Source: Cyanidioschyzon merolae (Eukaryota). From it: a stretch of DNA of 64,000 bases. Under the pieces are notes generated by a model. The model saw nothing but the letters and a program-made list of their open reading frames with translations, did not search any database and was not told where the DNA came from. Positions 1,792 to 56,430 of this stretch are shown piece by piece. Location: the NCBI GenBank assembly GCA_000091205.1, contig AP006500.2; one strand, 5' to 3'. Position numbers and translations under genes: made by a program. The stretch's first letter is position 1. Each line of letters starts with the position of its first letter.

Positions 1792-1810
1792 CACCACCAC
1801 CACCACCACC

Positions 1811-1843
<33 letters not shown>
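1792..1843. repeat. (CAC)~11(CAT)~6 compound trinucleotide microsatellite (would encode poly-His in one frame)
   Basis: Direct read. The paralogous tract at 14069-14132 is longer. Confidence 0.9.
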
Positions 1844-9541: not shown

Positions 9542-12352
9542 TTGGCTCGCGGCGTCTTCTATCCAACAGGGATCGAAGAAGCTGGTTGGCTCTCCCTGCT
9601 TGCTATTAGGGTTCCGGAAATGGAAGAAAGACGCAGTGACGTCTTTGATCCCCTGCCGGATCGTAGTCACGCGGCGATCTCGTGGCGAACAGCGGAACCG
9701 CAGACGCCGTCGCCACCGCTGCCAACGGACTTTCCGCGGCCGGTGTCTGCACCGCCCGACTTGGAAGTCCCCGAGCCTTTGCTGCTCGCGTCGTCGGGGA
9801 TCCAACCGAACTGGTTCTCAATCGTGGATATTCGTGCTGATATGGACTATGAATCGTTCTATGATGCTTTTAAGGCGCAAACGAAACTGCCTCCGCCGTT
9901 GGACTCGAGCGTCTTGCGCGGCGACTTTCGAACGGTGCAGCGAGTCCGAAGTCAAAACGAGCGGAGAGAGCACGTATCCATGGACGCTGCGCTGGAACAG
10001 GCGGGTCACGCGTTGGCTGGTCTAGGGGGTACTGGGGGAGCCTCGCTAACGCCGCACTCGTTGGCAGCGTCAAACCGCGGTTATGGCGAGGCGATGCGGT
10101 TCACAGATCCGCACGGGGGGCTCTTAACCATGGAACAAGTTGCGGTCTCGAGCCACGCGGCTCTGGGCAAAGGGCCTGCGTCGCCGGATCAGATGTTATT
10201 CCCCGGAAGCCGAGCCTCACAGATGATGGCAGGGAGCGGCGCGCCTGCAGAGGTATTGCGGCCGGTTGCGAACGCTGGCGCGCTCTTGCGACGCGACGAC
10301 AGTGACGCCTCCGTGGAGAACTTAATTTTCCGTGAAACGCTCAAATACGCCCGACAACTGGACAGGGAGAGTTCGGAAAGCGATCTGAGCACGACCGCGG
10401 AGCGGCGGATAACCGGCTCTGCGACCCAGACAACGAACGCTGCTATATATCATGAGGCGGATCGGCGACTCTGGCAAGCACCGCTCGTCGCTACCACGGT
10501 GCTTTACTCGTCCACGAAGCCGCATCCTGACACTAACGACAATGCGCTCGCACAGAAGGCTGTAGGCTTGGCGGGCACTCAGGATACGGACGGCACAAAA
10601 AATCACGCCGCAGCAACAGCAGCTGCTGCGAGCGCTCCCTCTCATATTTCCGACAACAGCGCAGGTGCAGGTCGTATCCCAAGTGGTGGTACCGGCTGTG
10701 AAGCCGGCGAACGATACGAGGAGCGCAGCTCGCCCCGATCGCGGAACGAACTCGCTGCTGGCATCCAGCGGGGCGTACCGTCGCGTTCGCAGACTCCATC
10801 GATGGCTGCTATTGCAGCCGTGAGTCCGCCCGTTGCCACGATCACCCCGGGGAGTTGTGCAGCAACCTCCGTCGTGCCGCGCATCCCAGTGACGACCTCC
10901 ACGATGGGCGCTCAAGTGGCTCAGACATCCACCCTGATGCCAGCCTGGACAGAAGCTGTTGCGCCAGTCCAGAGTATGGAGAATAGTGGCGCCTTTGACA
11001 TTCGGGATATTCGCGCTCCGCTACCGCACCCGGGTGCCGAGCATCTGCCGAAAAAACCATGGAGCACACGCGGGCGTCCCCGTCGAGCTCCGCGAAACAC
11101 AGCCCGTAGCAGCATTTATCTGGGGCAACATCAAGCGATGCCGTCTCAAGAGCTGCCTGTTGGACTCGATGCTGCGGCTTCTGGTCACCAACCGCATCAT
11201 CCTGAGCTTGTCTCGTTCAAGAGTGCTGCTCTTGCGGCATCCATTCCGACAAACACAGCGCCTGACGGGGCCTTGAGTGACGCGTCTGCCCCGCTCTCTT
11301 GCTTTGCTGGGCGTATGGCGCTGATGGCTCGGGATCAACAGGGAGGCCGCTACCTCCAGGCGCGTCTCGATGTCAAGAATGCTGCAGACACGGCGCTTAT
11401 TTTCGAGGAGTGTCGACCGCATTTCGTGGAGCTTGCGATGGATCCTTTTGGGAACTATCTATGTCAGAAACTCTTCGAGCACTGCAACCGCGAGCAACGG
11501 CTAGAGCTCATTCGACAGAGTGCATCGCAGCTGGCTCAGGTTTGTATGGACCCGCATGGAACTCGCGTTGTGCAGAAAATGATCGAGCTTACCGTTGAAC
11601 CTGAGCACGCCGCACTCATCGCCCAGGCCATCTCGCCGCACTGCCTATCGCTGATGTGTGACGTGAATGGAAATCACGTCATTCAGCGATGCTTACAGAG
11701 AATGGATGTCCCGTTGAGACGCTTTATCTACGACACCGCCCTCACGCGTTATCTGGAAATCGCGAGGCATCGACACGGCTGCTGTGTACTGCAGCGTTGC
11801 CTCGATCACGCGACGGCGGAACAGCGCAGCAACCTCTGCGCCCTGATTCTGAACAGTGCCTATGAACTGATGCAAGACCCGTTCGGCAACTACGTCGTAC
11901 AGTACGTGTTAGAGCTCAAGGAGCCGTCGTATACGAGGGCAATCATTCAACGCATTCGTGGCCACCTTTGGCAGCTTTCCATGCAAAAGTTTAGCTCGAA
12001 CGTGGTAGAGAAAGTCTTCACGATGGCGAACGAGCGAGACCTGCGATCACTGCTTCACGAGCTTTTAGAAGGCCCACAGTCGGTCGAGAGCATGCCGCTA
12101 CAGGTCGGCTCCGAGCAGCACCAACGAAATATACGACCCCTGCTTTTCGATCCGTATGCAAACTACGTCGTTCAGCGGGCGCTTTCGCTGGCGCCCTCAC
12201 CCGTGTTTGAAGCGTTGCGGGAAGCGATTCAACCGCACCTGGCGGAGCTGCGCGGCACACCCTTCGGGAAACGTATTCAAGCTCGCCTCTCACGGACGCC
12301 TTTGCGGACCGGTTCAGCGGTGACGTCCGCGAACGGCTCCAAACGACTCTAG
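9542..12352 (+). CDS. Pumilio/PUF-family RNA-binding protein, 936 aa, with a C-terminal array of about 8 Puf repeats and a long low-complexity N-terminal region
   Basis: C-terminal half contains successive Puf-repeat signatures: FGNYLCQKLFEHC, DPHGTRVVQKMIE, DVNGNHVIQRCLQ, HRHGCCVLQRCLDHA, DPFGNYVVQYVLE, QKFSSNVVEKVF, DPYANYVVQRAL. The true start may be an internal Met (e.g. MEERRSD...). Confidence 0.9.
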   Translation: MARGVFYPTGIEEAGWLSLLAIRVPEMEERRSDVFDPLPDRSHAAISWRTAEPQTPSPPLPTDFPRPVSAPPDLEVPEPLLLASSGIQPNWFSIVDIRADMDYESFYDAFKAQTKLPPPLDSSVLRGDFRTVQRVRSQNERREHVSMDAALEQAGHALAGLGGTGGASLTPHSLAASNRGYGEAMRFTDPHGGLLTMEQVAVSSHAALGKGPASPDQMLFPGSRASQMMAGSGAPAEVLRPVANAGALLRRDDSDASVENLIFRETLKYARQLDRESSESDLSTTAERRITGSATQTTNAAIYHEADRRLWQAPLVATTVLYSSTKPHPDTNDNALAQKAVGLAGTQDTDGTKNHAAATAAAASAPSHISDNSAGAGRIPSGGTGCEAGERYEERSSPRSRNELAAGIQRGVPSRSQTPSMAAIAAVSPPVATITPGSCAATSVVPRIPVTTSTMGAQVAQTSTLMPAWTEAVAPVQSMENSGAFDIRDIRAPLPHPGAEHLPKKPWSTRGRPRRAPRNTARSSIYLGQHQAMPSQELPVGLDAAASGHQPHHPELVSFKSAALAASIPTNTAPDGALSDASAPLSCFAGRMALMARDQQGGRYLQARLDVKNAADTALIFEECRPHFVELAMDPFGNYLCQKLFEHCNREQRLELIRQSASQLAQVCMDPHGTRVVQKMIELTVEPEHAALIAQAISPHCLSLMCDVNGNHVIQRCLQRMDVPLRRFIYDTALTRYLEIARHRHGCCVLQRCLDHATAEQRSNLCALILNSAYELMQDPFGNYVVQYVLELKEPSYTRAIIQRIRGHLWQLSMQKFSSNVVEKVFTMANERDLRSLLHELLEGPQSVESMPLQVGSEQHQRNIRPLLFDPYANYVVQRALSLAPSPVFEALREAIQPHLAELRGTPFGKRIQARLSRTPLRTGSAVTSANGSKRL

Positions 12353-12639
12353 CAAGCACATAAAAGCAGCTTGCAGCGCTGTCGTGCGGACGCTGGACAT
12401 GGCGCAGCAGCGTCACTTGGGAGTTCTGGACGTGCTTCGGAGACAGTTGACCGCGGCAGTGCCGGTTTCCAAGAACAGAGGGCGAAACCCCGGGACTTGG
12501 GTCGTTTCCGACGCCTTGCTGTTGTTCTTGTTCTTGTTGTTGTTGTTGCTGCTGCTAGATCCATGTCGGAATAGAATAGAACCGGTCCGCTTTGTTCACA
12601 CGGGCATACACGCTGGAATTTGAGCATGTTCTCATGTTC

Positions 12640-13950
12640 ATGAATATGAGGTTTTACGAGCCTCTTATGCGACTGCGTCGCTCTCGCCTCTCGTGTCCTT
12701 GTCTTTGAATACGCGTATCTGTCCTTGACCTCCAGCTCTGTTGCCGGCAGTCGAAAGATCATGACAGCAGCGGTAAAGACTGGGTGACGTCGTTTCCAGC
12801 CGTCGTCGACGCATGTCATGCAAAGGCGCAAGTTGCGATCTACGCTTCGCTCGCTACCGTTAAATTCTTCGCTTTCAGCCTCTGTATGCCCGTCGTAGCA
12901 GTGAAACTCTGCTATGGGTCAGGTGTTCTCATATGAATGCCACGCGTCGTCGGTCTCCTTCAAGGGTCGCCCCCTTGCACGTGAACGCCTGCTTCAGCGC
13001 TCGGCACATGCGCGTGACGCGTGCGCGTGTATGTCCTCGATGCCTCTCTCCGTTTTCGAGCTCGTTGCAGCACCCTGTGATCACTGGCTTCCTCTAGTCG
13101 AATTAAGCAGCGAGTGTTCTGTTTGCTGGGTGGGGAAGCGTATGCCGCTCAATTCTACCAGGGATTTGTGAACAGCGTCGCGTTCCGCAAAGAAACAAAT
13201 ACCAGAAGAAAAATTCTTGCTCGAGAACATGTCGAAAAATCTTGATCTGTTTGCGATTGCTGCGTGCAAAAACGGCGACGCTCTCTCTTTTGAAACCGAT
13301 TGCTCGGATGACTTGAGTCCGAGTCCAAGGGCCTTTACCATGCAAGCAGAAGGGACCGGAGCCGCTGGGAGCAAAGCCGTGACCGGCATCATGCTAATAT
13401 GGAATGCGGTTTCTTTGGTGGCGGGAGGGAGTGGCGGCTTTGCTTTTCGAACGGAATCGATTCTTTGACGTGACAAGTTCCGTAAACTTTCGACATGAGC
13501 TTGAGAAAAAGTCGTCTAGAGACGACGTCGAGTATCTTCTTCGCTTTCTTTCCCGCGGCGCAACTTGCTGGGCCAATGAATTGCCTCGACGTCGAGAAAT
13601 CGAAAACTTGAAAACGCATGCTTTGAGCATACTAAACGGAATGAAAAGGGAATAGGATAGGCTTGTAAGGATGACCGGATGATGATATTGGTTACTTTAC
13701 GAACCATGGTTCCATTGCGTCGCGAATCACCTCGATAACGATGACATGATGAATTCTGGATGCCAAGATTCCGAAGCTTTACTCGGAAGCACAACCAAGA
13801 ATCCAGAAACGATATATGAATCCAAACGGCGTTATTTCTCCAGATTGAACCACATGGCTGCACAAAACTGCGAAAAAAATAGATATACGGGAACAATGCG
13901 TGTACTTTCGTGTTCCATTCATTTCTGATACGGGTGTAGAGGTATGCAGC
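12640..13950 (+). repeat. Dispersed intergenic repeat family, copy D (~1.3 kb, diverged)
   Basis: Nucleotide blocks shared with the other copies: gttgccggcagtcgaaagatcatg ~ gttgccagcagtcgaaggatgtttatgg (20560) ~ ccgtagtcgaaggatgttggtgg (55040); ctgcttcagcgctcggcacatgcgcg ~ gctgcatcgctcgatacatg; gatgacttgagtccgagtccaagg ~ gaggtgactcgaatccgagtccaagc; tttcgacatgagcttgagaaaaagtcg ~ ttttcgtcatgagcttctgaaacagtcg. The conserved blocks fall in different reading frames between copies, so conservation is at DNA level. Confidence 0.7.
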
Positions 13951-14068
13951 CTCGGAGACGCTCGACACGTATGCATATCGTCAAGCGTCGTGCGTGGGCA
14001 CTTACATTGAAAAGAATCTCCGTTGCTTCTGCATGTCAATGTACGGTCAGGTATGTCGAATCATGGAT

Positions 14069-14084
14069 CACCACCACCACCACC

Positions 14085-14132
<48 letters not shown>
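14069..14132. repeat. (CAC)~11(CAT)~10 compound microsatellite, longer allele of the tract at 1792-1843
   Basis: Direct read. Confidence 0.9.
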
Positions 14133-14461
14133 GTTCACCAATGGCCCAGGAAAATCATGCCCGGCATACGCATAGGCGGGATGGTAGCATTGCTGAATCG
14201 CCGACTCGTGCCATACCGGTGCCTTGCTCCAGGCGAGCGTTCAACGCACGCTCTCTTGCTCAATCATACTTTTTCGTCGCAAGTCTTCGGCATTTAAACA
14301 CAGTGCCCACACGGAGCACGAATCGATTCGCTTTAAACTTCGCTCGATACATATAGCCGATAGACGCCCCCCAGGCACGAGACTTTTCCGGGTGTTGATC
14401 GAGACGTTCATGGCTCGGAGCGGAGCCTGCGCCCGCACACATGAATTGCGATGGAATCACA

Positions 14462-15008
14462 CCAAAGTGAGCCTGCCAGCTTCATTTGCCTCGCAATATG
14501 ACGTCCGAGGTCCGCTCGCAGTATCCCATGACGGACATTCCAAAGTGAGCCTGCCAGCTTCATTTGCCTCGCAATATGACGTCCGAGGTCCGCTCGCAGT
14601 ATCCCATGACGGACATTCCAAAGTGAGCCTGCCAGCTTCATTTGCCTCGCAATATGACGTCCGAGGTCCGCTCGCAGTATCCCATGACGGACATTCCAAA
14701 GTGAGCCTGCCAGCTTCATTTGCCTCGCAATATGACGTCCGAGGTCCGCTCGCAGTATCCCATGACGGACATTCCAAAGTGAGCCTGCCAGCTTCATTTG
14801 CCTCGCAATATGACGTCCGAGGTCCGCTCGCAGTATCCCATGTCGGACATTCCAAAGTGAGCCTGCCAGCTTCAATTGCTACGCAATACGACGTCCGAGG
14901 TCCGCTCGCAGTATCCCATGTCGGACATTCCAAAGTAAGCCTGCCAGCTTCTATTGCCTCGCAATTTGACGTCCGAGGTCCGCTCGCAGTATCCCATGTC
15001 GGACATTC
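14462..15008. repeat. 78-bp tandem repeat array, 7 units (5 identical units plus 2 variant terminal units)
   Basis: Same 78-nt unit as 2173-3109. 547 bp = 7.0 units. The translated ORF 14224..15039 shows 5 identical 26-aa units followed by the IATQYD...V and IASQFD...V variant units that also terminate array I. Confidence 0.9.
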
Positions 15009-19834: not shown

Positions 19835-20439
19835 AGTCAGAACACGTCCACGGCGCCGCCGGTGTCAATCGCGAGAGCGTAGTTGATTCAAGACGCTTTT
19901 CAGGAGAAAAAAAGCTCACCAAAGTGCTCACGGAGCGTCTGCCGTCACACGCTCGGGTACTCACCAACGAGCGCACGTGTTCTGGTTTGGGAGGTTTCAG
20001 GTGCCCGAGGCAGCAAACACAGGCTCCCTTTGTCCCGTCTCGATGCGCCAGCAACAGTGACGTAGACCAGCGGTCGTCCCTGTTGGACCGATCTTCGTTT
20101 CAAACGATTCGTTTGGAGCACCGTCTCCTCCAAAAGCGCTTCGTATGCGCTTGCCAGCTGCAACGGTAGCGGCAGCGTCGGCCTCGTGTACGCAGGGCAC
20201 GGGACGGCCTTGGTCAAGCAGCTGGGCATGAAATTTGTCTAAACTGGATATACCTGGACTTGGCGGACGCGAGTAGAGGGTTGCGCTTTGGAGGTGGTGC
20301 TCAGTGCGATTCCGTTGGAAGCACGTACCAGTCTCGACGAGCTGGCGTATGGGAGCGTCTCTAGACTGGTATAAGAATGAAATAAAGGAGGCTCATGCAG
20401 GGAACTCGGGCGTATACGAATGAATTCTGGAACTGTTCC

Positions 20440-21600
20440 CACTGTTATTGGCACAAGCCTTTGCGGGCTCTCTCTCATGCTGCTTCCCGATCCTCGTTCT
20501 TGTTTGTCTCCGGATTTTACATACGCCGGCCTTTCTTGTCTCTTCAGGTCCGTTGCCAGCAGTCGAAGGATGTTTATGGCTGCCCCCGAGTCTCGGTTAC
20601 GTCGTTTTGCAGCTCTTACCGACGCATTTGGTGCACAGATGGAAGCTGTGATCTACGATTCGGTAACGATTTGCATCTTTCTTGTATACATCGGTAGCTC
20701 TCGATCCGCGACGTTTACACTTGAGTGTCATCAGGTGCTCCCATACGTCCATCACAAGACTTCGTCCGCTGAGCGCCGCCCTGTGACGCGTGAACGCTCG
20801 CTGCATCGCTCGATACATGCCGTTGACTGGCAAGAAACGAAAAAGCTTCCAACGATCCTGTGCTTCGGTTCCTGGCCCAGTGCTGCACTCGAAGACCAGG
20901 AGCTGTATCTGGGCGATACGCGCGGCGAGTACGCTGTCCGCTGCACTTGCAAGTGCATGCTATTCTAACGAATAGAGGATTTTAGGACCTTGTTGTTGCC
21001 TGTGATGAAACAGGTATCGGAGAGGGAATCGAGGCTCCGGAGTACGTCGAAAAGTATCGAACCGAATATGCTCGCTTCGTGCAAAGCGGAGATGCGCGCT
21101 CCATAGAGACAGATCGCTGTAATGACTCATGTCCATATCCAAGACCATTTCTTATAGAGCTAGGAGAGACGGGAACTCCTGCGCGCATATCCCGTCGAAG
21201 GCATGGTGATGGTGCATTCGCGACCGGCTTCGTCGATGACCTGCAGGAAATGAAGCTTCATCTTTAGACCGGAGACGATTATGCGACGTCGGCAGCTCCA
21301 CGAGGTTTTCGGCATGCGCTTGTAAACAAGTCGTCAAAGCTCGACGTCGACAATTTTTTGCGTCGTCAAGTGTGCGGTGCCAATGGATACGCCTCGAGTT
21401 GCCCGTGAACACAAGGATCCAACACTCGTAGAATGCGTGATTCGATTCTGGTACACGTAAGAAAAGGATTCAAGAACAGTGGCAGCTCGTTTCTATAACT
21501 TCGATGACGATATCGGTTATTTGACGAATCCGAGCTCGGGGATGTCGCGAATCATCCTGATGAAGATGACGTAAAAGCGTCCAGCGGCACAGCGTGAAAG
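20440..21600 (+). repeat. Dispersed intergenic repeat family, copy C (5' portion clear, 3' extent approximate)
   Basis: ggattttacatacgccggcctttcttgtctcttcaggtccgttgccagcagtcgaaggatg aligns with 55000-55050 (ggctttagatacgccggtctctgttttccctccagtttcgttgtccgtagtcgaaggatg). gctgcatcgctcgatacatgccgttgactgg aligns with 55290 gctgcatcgctcgatacatgtgtttgacggg. Weaker matches continue to about 21550 (gacgaatccgagctcgggg ~ gactcgaatccgagtccaag). Confidence 0.6.
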
Positions 21601-22818
21601 GCTCCTCTGCGAAAAGCCGACCGCGGATCCAAAAATTACGCGTGAATCCGGCAGCACTTGCACCTGCTTTTCGCATGTCGAGGCTGTACACGTAAAAAAG
21701 CTCGGGAAAATTGAAAGACCCGAATGGAGCCACAGCTTCAGTGTTCCATTTTCATCTGGTACGTTTCTGGGGCAGCGGAGACCCTGTTCCTCATTGGTGA
21801 CAGAGCTTGCCCATTTTATGAGTGCTGACTCAATGCACTGTTGCAGTACCATAAAACATAACCAACGCAACAGCTTTTCCACATGATTTTACTTGTTTTT
21901 GCATCAAGCCTCGACAAAGGCACGGCCGTAGACGGCAAATGTGTCTTCATCCGTTACGTGCATCAGTACGGCCTGCCATGAACCATAATCCGGATCGAGT
22001 TCAGCGACTCGACGCGAAAGCTACAAGATGGTGGACAGGTCTTGCACACCGCCGCAACGTGCAACTAGCGGAGGCGATAGTAGCGAAGACGCTCACCAGC
22101 GCTTCACCGGACAGCGGTCCAGTGCGACGTTGATGATAGTCTGAGATTCACCGCCATGTTAAGGGGCACACGTACACCCGCGCAGTTTCGTTTGGCGTTC
22201 TGCTCCAAACAGCGTCACGAAGCCCGGGAGGACGCAACGCGAGACCCAGCTACGACTGCGCTTGCCGGCGCTAGTGCCGGCGTTGCGGTGCACGAATCAT
22301 GCATTGCTCATCAACAAACTGGTCGCTGTCACGCTCCATGACGCTTTGAGGGCACCATGAAATCTTCAACAAAAGTTTTGAACAGGAGTCTGCGCTGCCG
22401 CACGTGCACCGAGCGCACGTTCGCAGTCACAGAACGTGCAACGGAACCGTTGACGGTGCTATGGCTCGCTTCGGTCATGCTTTCTATGCCGCCGAGACTC
22501 CCACGTCGATACCGATGCCGGACAACGACTGTGACCAGGGAGGATACTTTGCGAGACGCGAACTATCTTTACTGAGGACTGCATACAGCCTGAGTCATCA
22601 CGACTCATCGCCGGTAACGTCTACAGGCACGACTGGAACTGCAGCGCCCAGCCTAGAACCGCGCATCTCTGTCCGTCATGCTGTCGAGGGATGTCCCGAA
22701 TCCATCCTCTGGCATTCATCAAATTCCAGGTGCAGTCCATTGCCTAGTGGACCTGATGCATGAGCGGCTCATCGTCTAATGACGTTGGAGATGAACAGCT
22801 CGCATCGGCAATCGGTGC

Positions 22819-23676
22819 TTACCGGACGACTGGGCCAAGGGCACGCAGCTCTAGTCGCTGCCGCTCTGCCCAGAAGCATCCGCTATACAAATGCGGTTCT
22901 TGCTCCGCTTCGCGCGGTAGCAACGCGAGAAACACCGCTGTATCTGCGCCCTCTTCGACAGTCTTCACACCCCGATGAGATGTCATGTCGGTTTTCACGT
23001 AGCCAGGACACATGGCGTTCACGAGCACATGCGGATGTATCGAGCGTAGCCGCTGCGCTAGGATTACGGCGTACATGGTTTCCAGCATTTTGCTCACCGC
23101 ATACGTTTGACGCGGCCATCCGTGCTGCGCATAGGAGCCATCCCCCACAGAGCGCACAAAATCCTCGGCGAGAGCATCCAATTCCTCGACGGTGCGCGCT
23201 CCCAGAAGACGCTCTCGGAGCTCAGCATTCGTTATCTTGTCAAAATTGCCAGCCCTGGATGAAACGAACACAATGCGACCCCCATCAGGCTGAATGTAGG
23301 GCAAGAGAGCCTCAGTCACGAGCTTCGTTCCGTAGTAGTTGCACCCAACGGTTTCGCGGGCAACTTTCTCGTCAAATGCGTCTCCTTTGTAGGCCATACC
23401 AGCATTATTGACCAAAATATCGACGGGGCGCTTCAGGGACTTGACATAGTCGCGGAACTTGGTTACCGTGTCCGGCTGCAGCAAGTCTAGCGCATGCCAA
23501 AGCGCCGGGTGCTCGGTGCTACCCACCTCTTTACTAATTGAATCGGCAGCCTCTTTAGCTGCCTCAGGTGTGCGTGCCGTAACCAAGACCTGCAGGCCTT
23601 CCTCCTGAGCAAGGCGCTTGGCGATGGCCCGGCCAATACCTCGTGAGCTTCCAGTGATAATCGCTAAGCGAGTCAT
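22819..23676 (-). CDS. Short-chain dehydrogenase/reductase, carbonyl reductase (CBR1)-like, ~285 aa
   Basis: N-terminal Rossmann motif TGSSRGIGRAIA right after a Met (MTRLAIITG...), NNAG, catalytic YxxxK (YAVSKMLET), and the C-terminal CPGYVKTDM...EEGADTAVFLALLP pattern typical of carbonyl reductases. The ORF track extends to 23736 (MYRIKSRF...); the internal Met at 23676 gives the canonical SDR N-terminus. Confidence 0.88.
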   Translation of the reverse strand: MTRLAIITGSSRGIGRAIAKRLAQEEGLQVLVTARTPEAAKEAADSISKEVGSTEHPALWHALDLLQPDTVTKFRDYVKSLKRPVDILVNNAGMAYKGDAFDEKVARETVGCNYYGTKLVTEALLPYIQPDGGRIVFVSSRAGNFDKITNAELRERLLGARTVEELDALAEDFVRSVGDGSYAQHGWPRQTYAVSKMLETMYAVILAQRLRSIHPHVLVNAMCPGYVKTDMTSHRGVKTVEEGADTAVFLALLPREAEQEPHLYSGCFWAERQRLELRALGPVVR

Positions 23677-29269: not shown

Positions 29270-29559
29270 TTGGAGCGTCTGCGCAACGCCAGAGCAGAAC
29301 GCGCTGGAAGCGCTGCCTGCGCGAAACGCGATGCCCACAATACCACACGTATCCGACGCAAGCGGAAACCCAAACTACTCGAGCTATGCCTGCATTTCGA
29401 TTTCCTTTCGAATGTTTTTTAGAAGAACTGTCTGGACGTTTCATGTGAAGCGATGAAGGCTTACGGATTCAGAAGTAGTTTTAGAACTGTCGATCTTCTT
29501 TTCAGAGTGACCCTTTCGAATCTTTGCTGTTGGAACCCTTGGTGTCACCGGAATCAAGA

Positions 29560-30400
29560 TGATTCGCGAAGCACTCGACCACAGAGTTGGGAAATAATCG
29601 GGATCATCATCTAGTTCATAGGTAAAGGCCTCTGGTCTTCTCCTTTCCTTACGTATAGCATGCCGAACCCGCGCATGGTACTCGTGTTCGATCTCTCCGT
29701 TTCAAGGCAGGTCGTAGGTGCAGCGATTCGAGCCGCTGGATTGACGAGGAAAATACTGGACGTCGTCGAATGAAGACTTGTACACAAGCTCATGGCGCAA
29801 GTTCACTGAACTTGTCATGAAAATGATGGATTTCATGTGAGAGACAAATTCTGCTTTCTTTGCGGTCCTCGATATGTCGGCATTCGACAACAGAAAGAGA
29901 GCTCGCACAGGATGTATGCGGCCAGAGGCACCTGTCTCTTCTGTTTGCATGGAAAGGGGTTCTTGGGTTCGGACTTTGATGATCGCAGCTTTCGCTTCGA
30001 TTTGCGTATGCATCAGCGCTTTGCATGGAGCGAGCGTAACCGGACCGACACTTCTCGACGTGGTCCCTGGTCTGCACTTTCCATCCGGTAATTGGCTCAT
30101 CATTTGACAACATCGCGCTCCATAATAATCCTCTGTCGAATGAGACAACTTGCACTTTCATGTGTGGCGGACGCAGCACTCGTCAGCGGGATCGTTCATT
30201 GTAAGCTCGTGATCGTGGCGTACCGCACAGGGCGCGGAAACGAAGATGCGTATCAAGCGGAGCCTTCTGAACCCGTCAAGCGCATCCATTGAGCAATAAA
30301 GCACCGCAGGAGGATGTCCGGAGAAGGATTCGTGGCGGACATGCCGCCATACTTGACCACGGCCAAGTGTCATCGCTGCAAAGTGTACACCTATTCTGTA
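29560..30400 (+). repeat. Dispersed intergenic repeat family, copy E (partial, approximate limits)
   Basis: gttcactgaacttgtcatgaaaatgatggatttcatgtgag is homologous to attcagtgaccttttcacatgagattgtcagcg (47130) and to the ..tttcgacatgagcttgag.. block of copies D and B. The ORF 29702..30148(-) translation ...SSVNLRHELVYKSSFDDVQY parallels ...SSVNFRHELEKKSSRDDVEY from copy D, consistent with DNA-level homology. Confidence 0.5.
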
Positions 30401-31513
30401 TAAAAAAATGAAAATGTCACGTTAAGAGTGTATTACAACTTCCACCTGTGTATGAAATACGTCCACAATAGCCGTCCGTTGCGAAATCGAGACGAGAACG
30501 CTGCGATCAACATCCTCCCACGACTGACATCGCAGCCCGAAGGTCAGAAGGGACCGGTGGATGTTTCGAGCCAGAGATGCGAGATAGGAGAAGGAAACAG
30601 TCGCAGAATCCTTCTCCGACTGTCCCCTATTGATGGTAGCTGGGAGAGACCCAAACCTCAGCATGTTCGCCCGAGGTCGCTGACAAGAGGATCTCTCCAT
30701 GCGATTCCAACAACGGTGTAGGCCTGCAACGAAGCGCGCGTCTCGCTGCCGACGTGAAGATACGGACCTTCATCGAGAACAAGCTGCAGCGTCCATCGCA
30801 CCGCATTACACAGCGGACGAGCAACGACATCAGTTCAGAGCTGATGGGGCCCTGAATTCCAGATGGGCGCATCTACGACCATGAGCTGGATACGTCCACG
30901 GAGGTCGTCCCTGAAAACACGCCTAGCATCTGGAACTTCTCTTTGTCGATCTTTCGGATCAAACAAGAAGAGCGCATGGTTTGCTCTCACCTCCATTGTT
31001 TTGATATCCCCCAGCAGCATTTCTCATGCCGATTGCATCCTACGGTGCTGCAGCTCCCCCGACTCCGAGCCGATGACCTGGAGTACGTTTCACACCGGCA
31101 ACCTCCGAGCTTCTGTTGGGATCACGTGACAAAGGCTATGCGGGGAATCCTCTCGCCTTCGTACTCCTATTTCATCTCACTTGAACGAATACCAATGATC
31201 CAGAGGGTTGCAGGTACCCGTATACAGGGTTCTGGCCAGCGCCAACGCAGCGGCATTGGATGCAGCGAGGCGGCACCGGTCGGTACACCTCCGGGAGCGT
31301 TCATACTCGTCGAGCTGGCTGGCTGGCTGGCTGGCTCGCTGCCTCATTGTTTTGTTCGTTGTTTGAACTCTTGGTTTCGTATTTGATAAGCTGGACGTGA
31401 TCTTCAGGACTGGACGAGGCGTTACCGCACTAGCCGCAAGCACGGAGCGGACTGCTGCTCGCGTCTCTCGCAGCGAGGTTGCACGTTCGGGCGCTTGAGC
31501 CGGCCTTTACGCT

Positions 31514-45212: not shown

Positions 45213-46289
45213 AAGGACGCACTGGTGATGCTCTCTGCCGAGGCAGCGAGCGCCTCGAGCAACCATCGCCCCGGTACGATTGTCGTAGACGGGATACTGG
45301 AGACGAATTCGAGTCGTTGCGGTGTCGTGCTGGGCGAAACGCTCCGCGTTGTGACCGTTTGCGACACTCAAGAGCGCTTCCACAGCTTTTGAGAGCGTGC
45401 GAAGCGATTCACCGTAAAGCGAGGTTTATCGGATACTTGCAAGCGTCTTCCAGGCAGCTGGGTGCAGTGATTTGAGCTCGCACGTAACTCGGCGACTCGA
45501 TCACGGTACCTGGTCGGTGTACGGCTCGCGAATGATGTCGCTGACAGAAATGACACCTCTGCGGTTCCGAGGAAGGATACGTGAACGGCGATATGCGTGC
45601 CGCATCGTGCACGGGCGACCGACTGCAGCACTGGAGAAGCGCTTCGAGGCGCTGCAACCGTCACGTGCTTCCATTCGCTTGACGGGCAAGAGGGTGCAGC
45701 ATGCAAGTCGCCAGCGCGGAGAGGCATCGCTCGTGGACGTGGAATGCAGCGCACCAGTTGCCGTGATGTCTTGGTAGCACCGGGATTCAAGCGTATCTGC
45801 ACCGGAGACGAGCTGATGAAGCGCAACGCACCATTCGTTTGTTTCGTTGTTTTCCATTGGAAACACTGCAGAGTTACAGGGGCCACTACTCGATGTATTT
45901 TTCGATGAAGCGATGACACCGTTTCTCGGTCTGAATCATATCCCAGGCCGAGTCCCGTCGAGAAAGTACGTTTTGGGTGGTTTCGCTCTGGCGCCAGCAG
46001 GAGCTAAACTACCGCCAAAAACGCGCAGGCACAAGAGCCCAGTGGTAGCATGTTTCCCCGTACAAACGGATACTGAGGAAAACTCGATAGAACGCTGGAT
46101 GTATACCAAAGAGCTGGCACCCGAGAAGCCGCCTCCACGCACGACCAACTGCAAACGTCCGCAATCGACAGCGTAGACTGCTAGGCTTTCAGCATGCTCG
46201 CCATGACATCCATGTCAGAGTGAAATGGCACGGGTCACCTACGTTGGCCATACAATCTGGAATTCAGGTCTCTGGGGTACATCATCAGC

Positions 46290-47620
46290 TTCAGCCTTTT
46301 GCAATCTGTTTTTCTACCAGCGTCCTTTTTTCTATCTTATCTCCGACAAGAAATACTCACAACTCTCGTTTCTCTTTAGCTTCGTTACAGCAGTCGGAAC
46401 ATGGATATTGCAGTACCAGAGTCCTAATTTCACTGCACTCGGCTACCGTTCACGCATGCCGTGCAAAGACGGCAGTTGCGATGTACGCTTCGCTTGTCAC
46501 TTTCATCTCCTCCGTCCAAAATTTCGTCGAGATTTGGCAGCGGTAGCGGTTGGCTAGGATCAGGTCGCCCCATTCGTCCGCTAGAGCTCCTCCGCCAAAC
46601 GCCGACCTGTGGCGCTTGACTGCTTGCCTCATCACTCGATACGTGAACGTGACGAATGCTGAACCCTCAACTCGATGCTTTGCTCCGTTTCCTCCACCGA
46701 TGCTGTACGCTACGACCGCGGGTCTCTTCTGGGCGATTCCACAGACATGTCTGCTGTTCACTGTCCAGGCAAACACATGACGCTCCATTCGAGAAAGTAT
46801 GTATGGAACGCACAGGGTATCCATGATGAACCAAATCCCCGAAGAAGACTCTAAGTTAGAGACCAAGTCGAGAGATTTCGATCCGTCTACGCTCCGTTCA
46901 TGGGAAACAGGGACGCACTCTTCACCGCAAGCGATCGCCGCGGTGACTCAAGTCCGAGTCCAAGACCCGTTTCCATGCAAGCGCACAAAACAGGAGCCTC
47001 GGGGGCCATATCCCTGGAGAGGTATCATGCAGCTGCTGCCGGTGCTGGTGCTGGTGCAGAGTACCGTTTCACATGTGGCCACATAGAGAGGAGGACATTT
47101 CCTTCGATCAGAATCTACGCTCTGACCGGACAAATTCAGTGACCTTTTCACATGAGATTGTCAGCGAGTCGTCCGAAAACGAGGTCGAGTTTCTGTCCGC
47201 GTTATGCCAGCAGCGCGAACGACAGCACCCACGAGATGCCTTGAAAAAGCAGAATCGAATACTTGTAGACTGCTTGATTTGGGCATGCTACACGTAAGCA
47301 AAGGTAAAACGCGGTGCATTGTATATCGGAGCTGGATAATGAAATCGGCTATTTTATGAACCCTACTTCGAGGGCGTCGTATACCGTCCTGATTCCCGCG
47401 ATGCAACGATTTTCAGTGGCCAGGCGTCGAAGGAACTACACAGAAAACGCGACCGAGAATCTTAAACATACGAACGCATCGGCAAGCCCTAATGACTGCA
47501 CTTGACATAGCAAGCCTGTACATGTAAAATATTCGGAAAAAAACATTACACAGGAACAGGGCACTGTGATCAGTGCTTCGTTTTAATCTGAAACTGATGT
47601 AGGGCACAAATCATGCACTT
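46290..47620 (+). repeat. Dispersed intergenic repeat family, copy A (~1.3 kb)
   Basis: Collinear with copy B: gcggtgactcaagtccgagtccaagacccgtttccatgcaagcgcacaaaacagg ~ gaggtgactcgaatccgagtccaagctcccttgtcatgcaaacagaacagactgg; gcacccacgagatgccttgaaaaagcagaatcgaatacttg ~ gcacccacaagttgccttgaaacagaaaaatcgaacacttg; the 5' blocks (cgttacagcagtcggaacatgg; catcactcgatacgtg) match copies C, D and B. Confidence 0.75.
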
Positions 47621-54095: not shown

Positions 54096-54989
54096 CAGAA
54101 GCTAGCTTTCAAGACCAGCGTCGGTGCCCGGAGCGACTTGCTTCAGCCTACGTTCGTCGCTGGAGTCGCAATGAGTTCGTGGTGGCGGGCTAGCAGGTGC
54201 GTACTGAACGCCCTGGCACACACCAGGACAGCGGCTCAGCTACTACGTGGTTACGTTGCAGCGCAGCGGCCGCAACGGAAACCCGGATGTGCCTGAATGC
54301 CTGCGGCATTGCAAAACATTCGTTTTCGATACGAACTCGAGTAAGGAGTGTTTCGAAGACGTTACTTTTTTCGTCTGCAAGTTTTCAGAAGACGTTCAAG
54401 CTTGTCGAAAGCGGTCAATCATTGATTCATGCATTCGAGTCTCCGAGCGCATTCGCTTCGTTCGGTACAGCGTTGCTGGACCTTGGCATAGCAACGCGCT
54501 ACTCAGCACGATCGAGGAACGTCGCTTAGCGAGTTCGAGCCTCGTCGATGTGTTTGTGTGCGTATATGTATATTCAGAGAGAGGCTGGACGAAGAAGAAC
54601 TCGAGTACCGTAGCGTTCTTCAACTTTGAGCGAGCACTGCCGCCATTCGCCTGGCCATATCCCTAAACTGGACAGTAGACGAGGTACCGTCTCAAACAAT
54701 GCATACCACAGGCATCTATGCTTTTGCTAAGAATCAAGTTTTTCCAGGCATGACGCTGGAGATCGCCGTTGGACCAGAGCTGGTGCTGGTGAGTGTTTAC
54801 CTCGCTGTCCGCAGCAAGCTCGGAAACTGCCTCGAGTCTGGCTCCGCACCGATATGTTCTCAGAGATTTTAGGCAAGAATGGAAGGGGTCCTCTTGCCTA
54901 ACTCGGGCGTAGACACGAAATCTTGGGTTAAGTACCAGTGTCTTTAACACTGGCTCTTTGCAAGCGTTCTCTGCAGCCGCCTACTTTTC

Positions 54990-56240
54990 CACCCGGCTGT
55001 ATCCGGCTTTAGATACGCCGGTCTCTGTTTTCCCTCCAGTTTCGTTGTCCGTAGTCGAAGGATGTTGGTGGTAGTGTTCAAGTTCCGACTGTGCTGTTTG
55101 TAGCTCCTGTCGACGACTTTCATCAATAGGTGGTCGTCGTAGTACCGCTCAGCGCATCGCTTGCCATTTGCACCTTCGCTGTATACGGCCTCGGTGTACC
55201 ATCCGCAGCGATGACACTAGCCTGGCGTCAGACGTTCGTCAAGGTGTGTCCACGAAGCAGCCTCGAAAAGCTGCCCGGTCACGTCTGAAGGCGTGCTGCA
55301 TCGCTCGATACATGTGTTTGACGGGTCCAGAGGGCTCGCGTTGATACCCATGTTCGTTATGGCGCCCGGTGACGTACGCGATGACCAGAGACCTCCTCTG
55401 GGTGTTCCTCTCTCGACGAGTACGCTGCCTGATGCACGCGCTAGCGCACGCTGCCCCATTCAAAAGACGATTGGGGGAACGCGCTCATGTACATGACGGA
55501 CAAAGTACGGAAGTGCTGTCTGAAGCGGGCGAGAATGCTCGATTCTTTACGCTCCCTCTATACACAACAGTGGCGTACGCTTCACCGGAGGCGATCGTCG
55601 AGGTGACTCGAATCCGAGTCCAAGCTCCCTTGTCATGCAAACAGAACAGACTGGATCCTCTGGGAGCGTTTCCCACGTGAGGTATCGAGCATCGTTGGAA
55701 TCCCGGTTCGTCGATGACCATACAGGTAGACGTATTTGTCTTTCGAAAGGAATCGATTACGATTTAATGTGAGGATTCCAGTAACTTTTCGTCATGAGCT
55801 TCTGAAACAGTCGACCAAGGATGGCATTGAGTAATTCTTATCGTCGATCTGGTGGCGCCAATGGCTGCACCCACAAGTTGCCTTGAAACAGAAAAATCGA
55901 ACACTTGAAATCTGCGTGGCGTAAGCATGCGACGCATGAGGAAAAGAGAAGAACGCAGGTTTGCGCGTTTGCAGTAGATCTTGGTAGGGATTGTTTCACG
56001 AACGGGTATTTGAGGGCGCTGCGAATCTTCTTGACTCTGGTGACGTAAAGAACTCCAGTCGTGTAGCGTCGAAAGAGCCATTCCGAAAAGACGATCGAGA
56101 ATCGTAAATACACGCACGAAACTCAAGCCCTCACAGCTGCATTCCGAATATCGGTATGGAGCATACGAGAGAGACTTTGGAAATTATCCCAAGGCAGGAA
56201 CAGCGGAACCCGTACCGTTCTGCATTTTAATCGGAGACGC
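54990..56240 (+). repeat. Dispersed intergenic repeat family, copy B (~1.25 kb, the most complete reference copy)
   Basis: Shares ordered blocks with copies C (5' third), D, A (whole length), E and F. See the alignments quoted under those features. Confidence 0.75.
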
Positions 56241-56430
56241 TTCTCGCGTATGAGAGATGCATGGCCAAGTTCCAGCACCGGCCGCCGTCACGAGTAGCGT
56301 AGACGTTTATGAACACACTGTGCAGATTTTAGACCAGGACAAGCGTACGTTGCCCCGCGACGTTGCCTGTACAGCCTATTCTGCACGCAGTACGCGCATG
56401 CTCGCGTGCATGCGTACGCATTGCCACGCG

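What the first reader, a model, noticed from the sequence alone, without database searches (positions are those of the whole stretch)
12640..13950. A diverged ~1.3 kb dispersed repeat family occupies at least seven intergenic sites (roughly 10% of the window)
Copies lie at about 12640-13950, 20440-21600, 29560-30400, 46290-47620, 54990-56240, 60800-61720 (all + orientation) and 63480-64000 (- orientation). They share ordered, collinear sequence blocks at roughly 70-85% identity (quoted in the feature evidence). Conservation is at nucleotide level: the shared blocks fall in different reading frames in different copies, so this is not a protein family. Several copies contain a T-arm-like hairpin (gactcgaatccgagtc / gactcgaacccg, resembling a tRNA B-box on the complementary strand). 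That would fit an old non-autonomous, possibly tRNA-derived (SINE-like) element, or alternatively a conserved intergenic module such as a ncRNA gene or regulatory/chromatin element. The density is striking for so compact a genome. Six copies are in one orientation; only the truncated copy at the window edge is reversed.
Basis: seen in the sequence. Interest (0 to 1): 0.65.

Follow-up and report, generated by a model that had tools for sequence, protein, structure and literature searches.

The report
Decayed mariner-type transposon carrying Fanzor remnant
The repeat is real at five of the seven sites, and it is the neutrally decaying remains of an old 1.38-kb cut-and-paste DNA transposon in a Cyanidioschyzon-like red alga, carrying the front of an IS630/Tc1-mariner transposase gene joined to the tail of a Fanzor1 (TnpB-like) gene, not an RNA gene or a SINE.

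Summary
Five full-length, collinear copies exist: 12558-13936, 20364-21767, 29344-30718, 46207-47599 and 54861-56243. Together they make up 10.8% of the window. Pairwise nhmmer E-values run from 1e-75 to 1e-104. The third copy is inverted relative to the others.

The window comes from a Cyanidioschyzon-like red alga. A consensus of 12 copies (five here, seven from hot-spring metagenomes) is 1,379 bp long. It has 24-bp terminal inverted repeats (20/24 matching) and TA-enriched flanks.

- An IS630/Tc1-mariner transposase N-terminal part (NCBIfam IS630 E=3e-17; Pfam DDE_3 above its cut-off).
- A Fanzor1/TnpB C-terminal part (Pfam TNB above its cut-off; E=1e-36 to intact metagenomic Fanzor1-like proteins).

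Each copy has 3-7 stop codons plus frameshifts. Substitutions are spread equally over the three codon positions and evenly along the element. All copies are 70-75% identical to the consensus. This points to one old burst followed by neutral decay.

No tRNA, Rfam family or stable RNA fold was found. The family is distinct from the published CMe-1A Fanzor element, pieces of which also lie in the window. Verdict: an ordinary kind of thing, and a probably undescribed member of it.

The parts
12558..13936 (-). Copy A of the 1.38-kb element (1,379 bp, TIR to TIR); the coding remnants are on the - strand
   Evidence: nhmmer and profile hits; TIR anchoring; consensus-to-window mapping
20364..21767 (-). 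Copy B (1,404 bp)
   Evidence: the left end was adjusted by eye to follow TA at 20362-20363
29344..30718 (+). Copy C (1,375 bp), inverted relative to the other four
46207..47599 (-). Copy D (1,393 bp); it lies only about 190 bp from the Rad51 ORF end
   Evidence: Rad51 ORF
54861..56243 (-). Copy E (1,383 bp); its ends are the most decayed, so the termini are good to a few bases only
13913..13936 (-). 5' terminal inverted repeat of copy A (CACCCGTATCAGAAATGAATGGAA), followed outside by TA at 13937-13938
12558..12581 (-). 3' terminal inverted repeat of copy A, preceded outside by TA at 12556-12557
13158..13865 (-). Copy A: decayed IS630/Tc1-mariner transposase N-terminal part (two HTH motifs and the first two catalytic Asp motifs)
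   Evidence: consensus hits to NCBIfam IS630 (E=3e-17) and Pfam DDE_3 (E=3e-9); mapping
12616..13157 (-). Copy A: decayed Fanzor1/TnpB C-terminal part (zinc ribbon and RuvC-III motif region)
   Evidence: Pfam TNB on the consensus; tblastn of P0123 and P0125 hits 12956-13213; mapping
20973..21691 (-). Copy B: transposase-derived part
20423..20972 (-). Copy B: Fanzor1-derived part; it still reads ...RRNRDSGAAINILRLL
29423..30135 (+). Copy C: transposase-derived part
30136..30658 (+). Copy C: Fanzor1-derived part; it still reads CHRC...C..Y...NRDENAAINIL
   Evidence: (E=2e-12 to P0125)
46793..47523 (-). Copy D: transposase-derived part
46260..46792 (-). Copy D: Fanzor1-derived part
55464..56164 (-). 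Copy E: transposase-derived part
54919..55463 (-). Copy E: Fanzor1-derived part

Best explanation
The five copies are molecular fossils of one family of non-autonomous cut-and-paste DNA transposons of the IS630/Tc1/mariner kind, in the nuclear genome of a Cyanidioschyzon-like red alga.

Anatomy of the reconstructed master copy. It was 1,379 bp long. It had a 24-bp terminal inverted repeat at each end and inserted at TA, probably within CTAG. Inside, on one strand, it carried two gene pieces. The first is the first ~236 codons of an IS630/Tc1-type transposase, with two helix-turn-helix motifs and the first two catalytic Asp motifs. The third catalytic residue is missing. The second piece is joined out of frame to the first. 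It is the last ~170 codons of a Fanzor1 gene (the eukaryotic TnpB-like RNA-guided nuclease), followed by that gene's 3' end.

Inferred steps. The parent was a transposon of the known 'transposase + Fanzor1' architecture. An internal deletion removed the DNA between the middle of the transposase gene and the RuvC-II region of Fanzor1. The deleted copy kept both ends. It was then mobilised in trans by a transposase that recognised those ends, in a single old burst.

Shown steps. Since insertion the copies have drifted neutrally to about 27% divergence from the consensus. They no longer encode anything.
For: Organism: INO1 is 100% identical to a JGI metagenome protein and 88% identical to Cyanidiococcus. 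The published C. merolae CMe-1A consensus hits the window.

Reality of the family.

More copies: 22 metagenome loci gave 7 further non-redundant full-length copies, all of the same ~1.4-kb unit.

Coding origin. The 5-copy consensus has one frame with 4 stops against 10-16 stops in the other frames. The 12-copy consensus gives NCBIfam IS630 E=3.3e-17, Pfam DDE_3 E=3.3e-9 at 37.2 bits (cut-off 28.6), HTH_Tnp_Tc3_2 E=1e-3, and, in another frame, Pfam Cas12f1-like TNB E=5.7e-7 at 30.0 bits (cut-off 26.3). PHROG 506 'transposase' matches collinearly at its C-terminus.

Independent of my consensus. Intact proteins P0122, P0123 and P0125 hit all five window copies by tblastn at E=1e-4 to 2e-12. The consensus ORF against P0123 gives E=1e-36. 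P0125 against the published Fanzor1 CMe-1 gives E=8e-12, including the GxDPGxxN motif. The consensus against CMe-1 gives E=8e-5, and against the PUl-1 mariner transposase E=1e-5.

Junction. Transposase homology ends at consensus position ~841. DNA-level homology to the intact Fanzor genes starts at positions 840-843.

Ends. The TIRs match at 20/24 in the consensus, and the majority flank is TA on both sides. TA is intact at 5 of 10 window flanks, against about 5.3 expected from the observed decay and about 0.5 from random sequence. TA is intact at 7 of 24 flanks among the 12 copies (P=4e-4). The same right end, TTCCATTT..ACA.GGGTG|TA, lies just downstream of the intact Fanzor1-like genes in three different contig types.

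Neutral decay and a single burst. Substitution rates at codon positions 1/2/3 are 0.25/0.27/0.27 (p=0.35) and 0.28/0.27/0.28 (p=0.9). Identity to the consensus is 0.70-0.79 in every 50-nt window. Every copy is 0.705-0.751 identical to the consensus. All pairwise identities are 0.55-0.62.

Insertion rather than ancestral sequence. The gene order adh_short / 600-aa ORF / PUF / INO1 is shared with Cyanidiococcus, but no copy is detectable there by DNA profile or tblastn.

Relative age. In L021 a TE-N2_CMe element sits inside a copy of this family.
Against: No autonomous parent with an intact transposase was found. The only significant database relatives of the transposase part are ORFs called on other decayed copies (P0121 and P0124). 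The intact Fanzor1-like genes have no such transposase next to them. No matching left TIR was seen beside them in L028 or L033. The 'deletion derivative of a two-gene parent' step is therefore inferred from architecture and from published analogues.

The TSD is not proven. The flank columns C-T-A and T-A-G are all enriched. The data fit either a TA duplication in a CTAG-like target or a TIR three bases longer with no visible TSD. No empty site was available.

A profile of the five pseudo-translations found nothing in the large protein database at E<=1e-3 and nothing in the PDB.

The family hits rest on a reconstructed consensus. The consensus has an in-frame TGA, which I explain as CGA>TGA decay by reading the aligned copies by eye. 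The exact junction could be off by a few tens of bases.

Repbase and Dfam could not be searched, so the family may already have a name.
Confidence: 0.85

Rival explanations
1. It is the already published C. merolae repeat: the 'WSV486-like' interspersed element of Nozaki et al. 2007, which is the Fanzor1 element CMe-1A of Bao and Jurka 2013, seen here as short copies.
For: Both are old, dispersed, carry a truncated TnpB/Fanzor-like ORF and live in the same genome. The consensus ORF is remotely similar to the CMe-1 protein (E=8e-5). Individual copies might have been counted among Nozaki's 253 repeats, or among the '8 class II elements' that are weakly similar to bacterial transposases.
Against: The family profile finds nothing in the published 3,169-bp CMe-1A consensus, even at E<=10. 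CMe-1A hits other places in the window (7703-8272, 8941-9423, 33562-34372) and none of the five copies. CMe-1A is described as lacking TIRs and as having no transposase. This family has both. Protein identity in the shared Fanzor part is only 24%.
Confidence: 0.05
2. It is a conserved intergenic functional module, such as a long non-coding RNA gene, a regulatory element or a chromatin element, kept by selection at many sites.
For: Length is strikingly well kept (1,375-1,404 bp) with few indels. All copies are intergenic. The spacing of copies is roughly 8-9 kb or twice that (coordinates). The literature reports that C. merolae repeats are transcribed and that half carry H3K27me3.
Against: Identity to the consensus is flat along the whole element, with no protected segment. 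The pairwise identities form a star with no orthology signal. No copy lies at the syntenic sites of Cyanidiococcus. There is no Rfam hit, and the 3' fold has z=-0.21. Orientation relative to neighbouring genes is inconsistent. Population variants in metagenomes show the same identity inside the element as in its flanks, although that test has little power.
Confidence: 0.05
3. It is a tRNA-derived SINE-like retroposon.
For: A 5-bp-stem hairpin with a B-box-like look is present in three copies.
Against: ARAGORN finds no tRNA and Rfam finds nothing. The hairpin lies in the middle of the element inside the transposase-derived coding remnant. The element has TIRs, no A-rich or simple-repeat tail, and copies of a fixed length with no 5' truncation series.
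Confidence: 0.01
4. The copies arose by local segmental or tandem duplication of an ~8.5-kb block, after which the genes between them were replaced, rather than by transposition.
For: The copies are fairly regularly spaced within 44 kb. The window does contain a real, young 3.2-kb duplication next to copy A.
Against: Similarity stops sharply at the TIRs in all 12 copies, and the flanks are unrelated. One copy is inverted. Copies occur in unrelated contexts in many metagenome contigs. All copies are equally distant from each other, whereas stepwise duplication would give a nested tree.
Confidence: 0.02

Closest known systems
Mariner/Tc1-type transposons that carry a Fanzor1 gene (for example PUl-1, PUl-2 and PUl-4 of Pythium ultimum, and PGv-1 of Phaeocystis globosa virus; Bao and Jurka 2013, Mob DNA 4:12, PMC3627910)
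   Same: TIRs of about 24-33 bp and a TA target site. A transposase gene at the 5' side and a Fanzor1 gene at the 3' side on the same strand. Some derivatives keep the ends but not the transposase. The consensus transposase part aligns to the PUl-1 transposase (E=1e-5). The RuvC-III region aligns to PUl-1 Fanzor1 (E=3e-4).
   Different: Here only about 236 codons of the transposase and about 170 codons of Fanzor1 remain, joined out of frame in a 1.38-kb unit. No full-length relative with both genes was found. The TIR sequence is unrelated to that of PUl-1. All known copies are dead.
CMe-1A / TE-N2_CMe of C. merolae, the 'WSV486-like novel interspersed repetitive element' (Nozaki et al. 2007, BMC Biol 5:28; Bao and Jurka 2013)
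   Same: Same host lineage. Both are old (copies about 80% identical to the consensus for CMe-1A, about 72% here), dispersed and Fanzor1-derived. Pieces of CMe-1A lie in the same window.
   Different: No DNA similarity between the two. CMe-1A is about 3.2 kb, has no TIRs and no transposase, and some copies keep an intact 734-aa Fanzor1. This family is 1.38 kb, has TIRs and a transposase remnant, and keeps only the Fanzor C-terminus. It is also older: TE-N2_CMe is found inserted into one copy.
IS630/Tc1/mariner superfamily of DDE transposons
   Same: N-terminal paired HTH motifs. The DE(T/S) and DN..H catalytic motifs are about 80 residues apart. TIRs and TA-type flanks are present.
   Different: The third catalytic residue and the C-terminal ~60 residues are absent from the family consensus, so the master copy itself could not have made an active transposase.
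Intact Fanzor1-like genes P0122, P0123 and P0125 on metagenome contigs L028-L033
   Same: They are by far the closest relatives of the 3' half (E=1e-36). DNA-level similarity starts exactly at the junction. The same right end plus TA lies downstream of the genes.
   Different: They are complete ORFs of 551-712 aa with the RuvC-I motif, on 2.2-kb units that are 83% identical between two contigs. No IS630-like transposase is nearby. Their neighbours are a very divergent Rpb2, an RNA ligase, a UvrD helicase, a 2,625-aa Peptidase_S74 protein and ATG8. This looks like a giant virus rather than a red-algal nucleus, but it is unverified.

Membership tests
IS630/Tc1/mariner DNA transposons | Terminal inverted repeats | tested here: met
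   The 24-bp TIRs match at 20/24 in the 12-copy consensus and at 10-17 of 27 in the individual decayed window copies. The 3'-end model matches the 5' end of copy A in reverse orientation (E=0.03).
IS630/Tc1/mariner DNA transposons | TA target-site duplication | tested here: inconclusive
   TA is the majority dinucleotide on both flanks. It is intact at 5/10 window flanks and at 7/24 flanks of the 12 copies (P=4e-4). However, the next outward bases (C...G) are also enriched, so CTA could be part of the TIR. No empty site was available.
IS630/Tc1/mariner DNA transposons | Transposase with N-terminal HTH domains and a DDE/D catalytic triad | tested here: inconclusive
   The HTH motifs and the first two Asp motifs are present in the consensus (IS630 E=3e-17; DDE_3 at 37.2 bits against a cut-off of 28.6). 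The third catalytic residue is absent, because the homology stops at the junction. This is derivation from such a gene, not a working member.
Fanzor1 / TnpB (RNA-guided RuvC nucleases) | C-terminal motif [TS][TS]xx-C4 zinc ribbon-x(5,50)-RD (Bao and Jurka 2013) | tested here: met
   The consensus reads ...WEHLTTAKCHRC-x(24)-CMKC-x(10)-RDLNAAINIL. Pfam TNB scores 30.0 bits against a cut-off of 26.3. The consensus ORF matches P0123 at E=1e-36, and P0125 matches published CMe-1 at E=8e-12.
Fanzor1 / TnpB (RNA-guided RuvC nucleases) | RuvC-I aspartate (GxDPGxxN) and the N-terminal WED/REC half | tested here: not met
   Strong homology to the intact relatives begins only at about residue 316 of P0123 and position 840 of the consensus. 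The N-terminal two thirds of the gene are not in the element.
Fanzor1 / TnpB (RNA-guided RuvC nucleases) | An omega-RNA encoded at the 3' end of the element | tested here: inconclusive
   The 3' end is conserved between this family and the intact genes' downstream sequence. However, the consensus 3' 235 nt folds no better than shuffles (z=-0.21). No covariation test is meaningful on neutrally decaying copies.
CMe-1A (published C. merolae Fanzor1 element) | Nucleotide similarity to the 3,169-bp CMe-1A consensus | tested here: not met
   nhmmer of the family profile against CMe-1A gives no hit at E<=10. CMe-1A hits other window positions only.
tRNA-derived SINE | tRNA-related 5' head with A and B boxes, a 3' A-rich or LINE-derived tail, and no TIRs | tested here: not met
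   There is no tRNA and no Rfam match. The hairpin is internal and lies in a coding remnant. TIRs are present and there is no tail.
Structured non-coding RNA family | A conserved secondary structure or a match to a curated covariance model | tested here: not met
   Rfam gathering threshold and E<=1: nothing. Only the last 235 nt were folded (z=-0.21). Decay is uniform along the element.
MITE | Short (<~800 bp) non-coding TIR element | tested here: not met
   The element is 1,379 bp and is almost entirely made of recognisable coding remnants. It is better described as an internally deleted non-autonomous element.

The most novel reading that the evidence does not exclude
Two linked readings are not excluded. 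(a) The family is much more abundant than the genome papers imply. There are five copies in 64 kb here, and 3 of about 11 independent metagenome loci have a second copy within 3 kb. That would extrapolate to several hundred to about a thousand copies, roughly 5-10% of a genome famous for having '0.7% transposons'. These copies would have been missed because they are only about 58% identical to each other. (b) Its Fanzor half descends from a transposon shared with giant viruses of hot-spring red algae. The intact, presumably thermo-acid-adapted Fanzor1 genes on those viral-looking contigs still carry the same right end, so they could be live RNA-guided nucleases whose guide RNA region is now easy to locate.
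Probability: 0.25. Interest if true: 0.55.

Novelty: new member of a known kind. Interest (0 to 1): 0.35.

Why it matters
The kind of element is known: Fanzor1 genes riding in mariner-type transposons, and their dead deletion derivatives. The finding therefore does not change how such elements are thought to work.

It matters in three modest ways.

First, Cyanidioschyzon is cited as a nearly transposon-free eukaryote. In this window, five fossils of this family, CMe-1-type repeats and a third repeat together make up about a quarter of the sequence. Most of it is too diverged for BLASTN-level repeat finding. The repeat content of this model genome may therefore be underestimated. Annotated 'hypothetical' ORFs or transcripts in such intergenic regions may be transposon debris.

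Second, it would be a second Fanzor1-derived family in C. merolae. It comes with a clean chimeric junction that shows how such elements lose autonomy.

Third, its closest intact relatives sit on contigs that look like giant viruses from the same kind of habitat. This gives a concrete lead on virus-host transposon exchange and on thermophilic Fanzor nucleases.

Tried and rejected
1. Frame-by-frame BLOSUM scoring and stop counts on the raw 5-copy alignment showed no coding frame. A weak 3-periodicity in conservation did not hold up against the consensus test. The coding origin appeared only after building a consensus.

2. My first reading was a single 441-aa TnpB-like ORF. I revised it when the 12-copy consensus put the HTH and DDE motifs in one frame and the zinc ribbon in another. 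The long open alternative frame over the DDE region, which gene callers also read (P0121), is not supported by homology upstream of position ~840.

3. Exact look-ups of three window ORFs found nothing on record.

4. A protein database search with the alignment of pseudo-translations gave no hit. PDB sequence searches gave no hit.

The single consensus protein worked.

6. align_proteins refuses translations that contain stops. For that reason the exhaustive representative search and the structure prediction, which accept only window sequences, were not used.

7. IMG/VR scans for the Fanzor relative and for the transposase part found nothing.

8. I looked for a left TIR beside the intact Fanzor genes and found none convincing in L028 or L033.

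9. I compared near-identical metagenome variants to test for constraint. Divergence was too small to be informative.

10. The roughly 8.5-kb spacing of copies is treated as coincidence or local hopping. No test was possible within one window.
Full report
WHAT THE WINDOW IS. The window has 55% G+C and long intron-less ORFs on both strands, about one per 3.5 kb. The myo-inositol-1-phosphate synthase ORF (5624-7237, - strand) is 100% identical to a protein from a JGI metagenome. It is 88% identical to Cyanidiococcus yangmingshanensis, 79% to Cyanidium and 70% to Galdieria. The published Cyanidioschyzon merolae transposon consensus CMe-1A finds several pieces in the window. The sequence is therefore from C. 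merolae or a very close relative. This is an inference, because exact look-ups of three ORFs found no record.

CHECK OF THE OBSERVATION. BLASTN of the window against itself shows only patchy 64-79% matches between the proposed copies. nhmmer with each copy as the query finds the other four end to end at E=1e-75 to 1e-104. The MAFFT alignment is collinear over about 1.4 kb with few indels. A profile finds exactly five copies, and nothing else even with filters off and E<=10. The copy near 30 kb is inverted relative to the rest. Those five still add up to 10.8% of the window.

FROM 'NON-CODING' TO 'DECAYED CODING'. Taken one by one, the copies have 6-22 stops in every frame, and no frame scores better than the others. 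The profile consensus is different. Its C-terminus reads CHRC-x-C..C-x-RD.NAAINIL, which is the TnpB/Fanzor signature.

To get a better consensus I back-searched metagenomes with the consensus protein. This gave 22 loci, and they contributed seven more non-redundant full-length copies of the same unit. The 12-copy consensus resolves two separate readings.

- Frame 0, consensus positions 133-841, reads MYSLD...FGVAPSTLCRWNSL...VVIDETAF...GYAPRGS...FIMDNIAFHKS. It matches the NCBIfam IS630 transposase (E=3.3e-17, residues 25-236 against model positions 20-238 of 299). It also matches Pfam DDE_3 (E=3.3e-9, 37.2 bits, cut-off 28.6) and HTH_Tnp_Tc3_2 (E=1e-3).
- Frame 2, from about position 842 to 1376, reads ...RMEQHALACAADSVLAEGIAQKKPVIVGYSTGRGNGG...VVDIWEHLTTAKCHRC...CMKC...RNRDLNAAINILRLL. 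It matches Pfam Cas12f1-like TNB (E=5.7e-7, 30.0 bits, cut-off 26.3).

The only in-frame stop inside the transposase reading is a TGA. Reading the aligned copies by eye, that codon is CGA, CAA or TTG in three copies and TGA in two, so it is probably a CGA>TGA change.

EVIDENCE THAT DOES NOT DEPEND ON MY CONSENSUS. The last large protein search returned three intact proteins: P0122 (610 aa), P0123 (551 aa) and P0125 (712 aa). It also returned ORFs called on other decayed copies (P0121, P0124). The consensus frame-2 ORF aligns to P0123 at E=1e-36. Identity is very high from ALA.AAD...KPVI.GY.TGRGNGG.H.GEPSVPVK.MYRA.K.AF.RHR to the RuvC-III motif. Used as tblastn queries, these natural proteins hit all five window copies at E=1e-4 to 2e-12. 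P0125 aligns to the published C. merolae Fanzor1 protein CMe-1, taken from the supplement of Bao and Jurka 2013. That alignment has E=8e-12 over 255 residues and includes the IETDGV and GxDPGxxN (RuvC-I) motifs. The consensus ORF also aligns to CMe-1 directly (E=8e-5). The transposase part aligns to the mariner transposase of the Fanzor1-carrying Pythium element PUl-1 (E=1e-5).

THE JUNCTION. Transposase homology ends right after the second catalytic motif, at consensus position ~841. DNA-level similarity between the family profile and the intact Fanzor1-like genes begins at profile positions 840-843. The weakly aligned stretch upstream of that point is not supported by the DNA comparison. The element is therefore a chimera. 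It holds about 236 codons of a transposase, lacking the third catalytic residue, joined out of frame to about the last 170 codons of a Fanzor1 gene and that gene's 3' end.

THE ENDS. Alignment of all copies with 200-bp flanks shows similarity beginning and ending sharply at the same points, with unrelated flanks. The consensus termini are CACCCGTATCAGATTAAAATGGAA and, reverse-complemented, CACCCATGTCAGAATGAAATGGAA. They match at 20 of 24 positions, and the element is 1,379 bp. The majority base outside each end spells TA. In the window, TA is intact on both sides of copy A and on one side each of B, C and D. That is 5 of 10 flanks, which is what 27% decay per site predicts and about ten times the random expectation. 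Over the 12 copies it is 7 of 24 (P=4e-4). The next outward positions (C before, G after) are enriched too. The data therefore fit either a TA duplication in a CTAG-like target or a slightly longer TIR. I leave the TSD as likely but unproven. The same right end (TTCCATTT..ACA.GGGTG, then TA) lies just downstream of the intact Fanzor1-like genes in L028, L029/L030 and L033. This ties the 3' half of the element, terminus included, to that gene lineage.

STATE OF THE COPIES. Each window copy has 3-7 in-frame stops and one or two frameshifts relative to the consensus reading. Differences from the consensus are spread evenly over codon positions: 0.252/0.270/0.265 (p=0.35) in the transposase part and 0.279/0.271/0.276 (p=0.9) in the Fanzor part. 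The result is unchanged when CpG sites are excluded. Identity to the consensus is 0.70-0.79 in every 50-nt window, and each copy is 0.705-0.751 identical to the consensus. All 66 pairwise identities lie between 0.55 and 0.62. That is a star phylogeny: one burst from one master sequence, then neutral drift of about 0.33 substitutions per site (Jukes-Cantor, my calculation). There is no protected sub-region, TIR or otherwise.

AGE AND INSERTION. The gene order adh_short / ~600-aa ORF / PUF / INO1 is shared with Cyanidiococcus. Copies A and B, which sit in that block, have no counterpart there by DNA profile (filters off) or by tblastn. A copy of the same age would be detectable, so these look like insertions in the Cyanidioschyzon lineage. 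Later loss in Cyanidiococcus is not excluded. In metagenome locus L021 a copy is split by a 0.6-kb insertion that matches the 5' 640 bp of CMe-1A (= TE-N2_CMe) at E=1e-123. The family therefore predates TE-N2_CMe activity. This agrees with its lower identity to its consensus, about 72% against the ~80% published for CMe-1A.

RNA HYPOTHESES. ARAGORN finds no tRNA. Rfam finds nothing in the window at gathering thresholds, and nothing in copy A at E<=1. The last 235 nt of the consensus, where a Fanzor omega-RNA would lie, fold no better than shuffled sequence (z=-0.21). This does not exclude a former omega-RNA, but there is no positive sign of one.

RELATION TO WHAT IS PUBLISHED. Nozaki et al. 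2007 reported three things for C. merolae: 26 retrotransposons, 8 'class II' elements weakly similar to bacterial transposases, and 253 copies of a 3.2-kb interspersed repeat with a truncated ORF weakly similar to WSSV protein WSV486. Bao and Jurka 2013 list a single Fanzor1 family for C. merolae. This is CMe-1A: 3,169 bp, about 150 copies, about 80% identical to its consensus, no TIRs, class unknown. They also list a Fanzor1 element in the white spot syndrome virus genome. I take that element to correspond to WSV486, and CMe-1A to be Nozaki's repeat. That link is my inference.

The present family shows no nucleotide similarity to CMe-1A. It has TIRs and a transposase remnant, so it is a different family. 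Individual copies would give only weak BLASTX hits to bacterial IS630 transposases, so some of Nozaki's eight class II elements may be members. That is an inference and was not tested. Architecturally the closest published things are the mariner-type Fanzor1 elements PUl-1, PUl-2, PUl-4 and PGv-1. I found no paper describing this family. Repbase and Dfam could not be searched.

HOW IT MOST LIKELY CAME ABOUT.
- Shown: the element has inverted termini, two gene fragments of the stated origins joined at about position 840, and copies that decay neutrally from one master sequence.
- Inferred: a parent transposon carried a transposase gene followed by a Fanzor1 gene between these ends.
- Inferred: an internal deletion fused the two genes and killed both.
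- Inferred: the shortened element was mobilised in trans at TA sites.
- Inferred: the source of transposase was later lost.

What weakens the inferred part is that no parent and no intact transposase relative were found. The intact Fanzor1-like genes also seem to sit on 2.2-kb units without that transposase.

SIDE OBSERVATION ON THE INTACT RELATIVES. The contigs holding P0122, P0123 and P0125 have several unusual neighbours: an Rpb2-like gene, an RNA ligase, a UvrD helicase, a 2,625-aa Peptidase_S74 protein, an ATG8 homologue and many ORFs without Pfam hits. The Rpb2-like gene scores only 485 bits against eukaryotic RPB2 structures, barely above archaeal Rpo2 at 405 bits. To my knowledge, a score that low is far below what a true red-algal RPB2 orthologue would give. 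This composition suggests giant viruses. Giant viruses are reported to dominate the virus community of Yellowstone red-algal mats (Benites et al. 2024). IMG/VR holds no relative, and I could not see hallmark genes, so this remains a lead.

VERDICT. The feature is a real repeat family at five sites. It is correctly sensed as an old non-autonomous element but wrongly read as non-protein and possibly tRNA-derived. It is a dead, internally deleted IS630/Tc1-mariner-type transposon with a Fanzor1 tail. It is a known kind of thing, it is apparently an undescribed family, and it is of moderate interest.

Noticed in passing
window 1763-5194 and 14040-17098; also ~33400-35600: The first two segments are 96-98% identical, which marks a young pair of a ~3.1-3.4 kb repeat. 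Each contains a 78-bp tandem array (2173-3109 and 14462-15008) that creates the long ORFs 1935-3140(+) and 2168-3184(-). A third, diverged copy lies at ~33.4-35.6 kb and in metagenome loci L018 and L022. It overlaps CMe-1 Fanzor1 coding remnants (33562-34372, - strand). This is therefore probably a CMe-1-related ('WSV486-like') element rather than a plain segmental duplication.
   Followed up: partly
window 7703-7968, 7976-8272 (+) and 8941-9423 (-): Pieces of the published C. merolae CMe-1A consensus lie between the INO1 and PUF genes. One is an internally deleted copy (consensus positions 788-1038 joined to 2809-3112). The other is a copy of the 5' 535 bp, which corresponds to TE-N2_CMe.
   Followed up: partly
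whole window: Transposon-derived DNA adds up to roughly 17 kb, about a quarter of the window. This counts the five 1.38-kb copies, the 3-kb repeat copies and the CMe-1A pieces. The figure is far above the '0.7% transposons + 5% WSV repeats' quoted for C. merolae.
   Followed up: no
L028 6001-8139, L029 6001-7833, L033 5569-7224 (metagenome contigs): These are intact 551-712 aa Fanzor1-like genes, the closest relatives of the element's 3' half. They are followed by the same right end plus TA. Their contigs have giant-virus-like neighbours: a very divergent Rpb2, an RNA ligase, a UvrD helicase, a 2,625-aa Peptidase_S74 ORF and ATG8. L028 also has a CMe-1-like Fanzor C-terminal fragment just upstream, at 5512-5832.
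   Followed up: partly
L021 3705-4317; L010/L012, L014/L020 and L023: In L021, a TE-N2_CMe insertion (E=1e-123 to CMe-1A positions 2-640) splits one copy of the 1.38-kb family. In several other metagenome contigs, two or three copies of the family lie within 2-3 kb of each other, which suggests clustering or a high genome-wide density.
   Followed up: partly
window 5658-23360 compared with L001-L004: The gene order adh_short / ~600-aa ORF / PUF / INO1 is conserved with Cyanidiococcus at about 76% nucleotide identity in the genes. All of the repeat insertions between these genes are absent from the Cyanidiococcus loci.
   Followed up: yes
window 14076-14135 and 12520-12555: A (CAC/CAT)n run sits at the left edge of the 14040 repeat copy. 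A (GTT/GCT)n run directly abuts the 3' end of copy A.
   Followed up: no
What they are was not worked out.
   Followed up: partly
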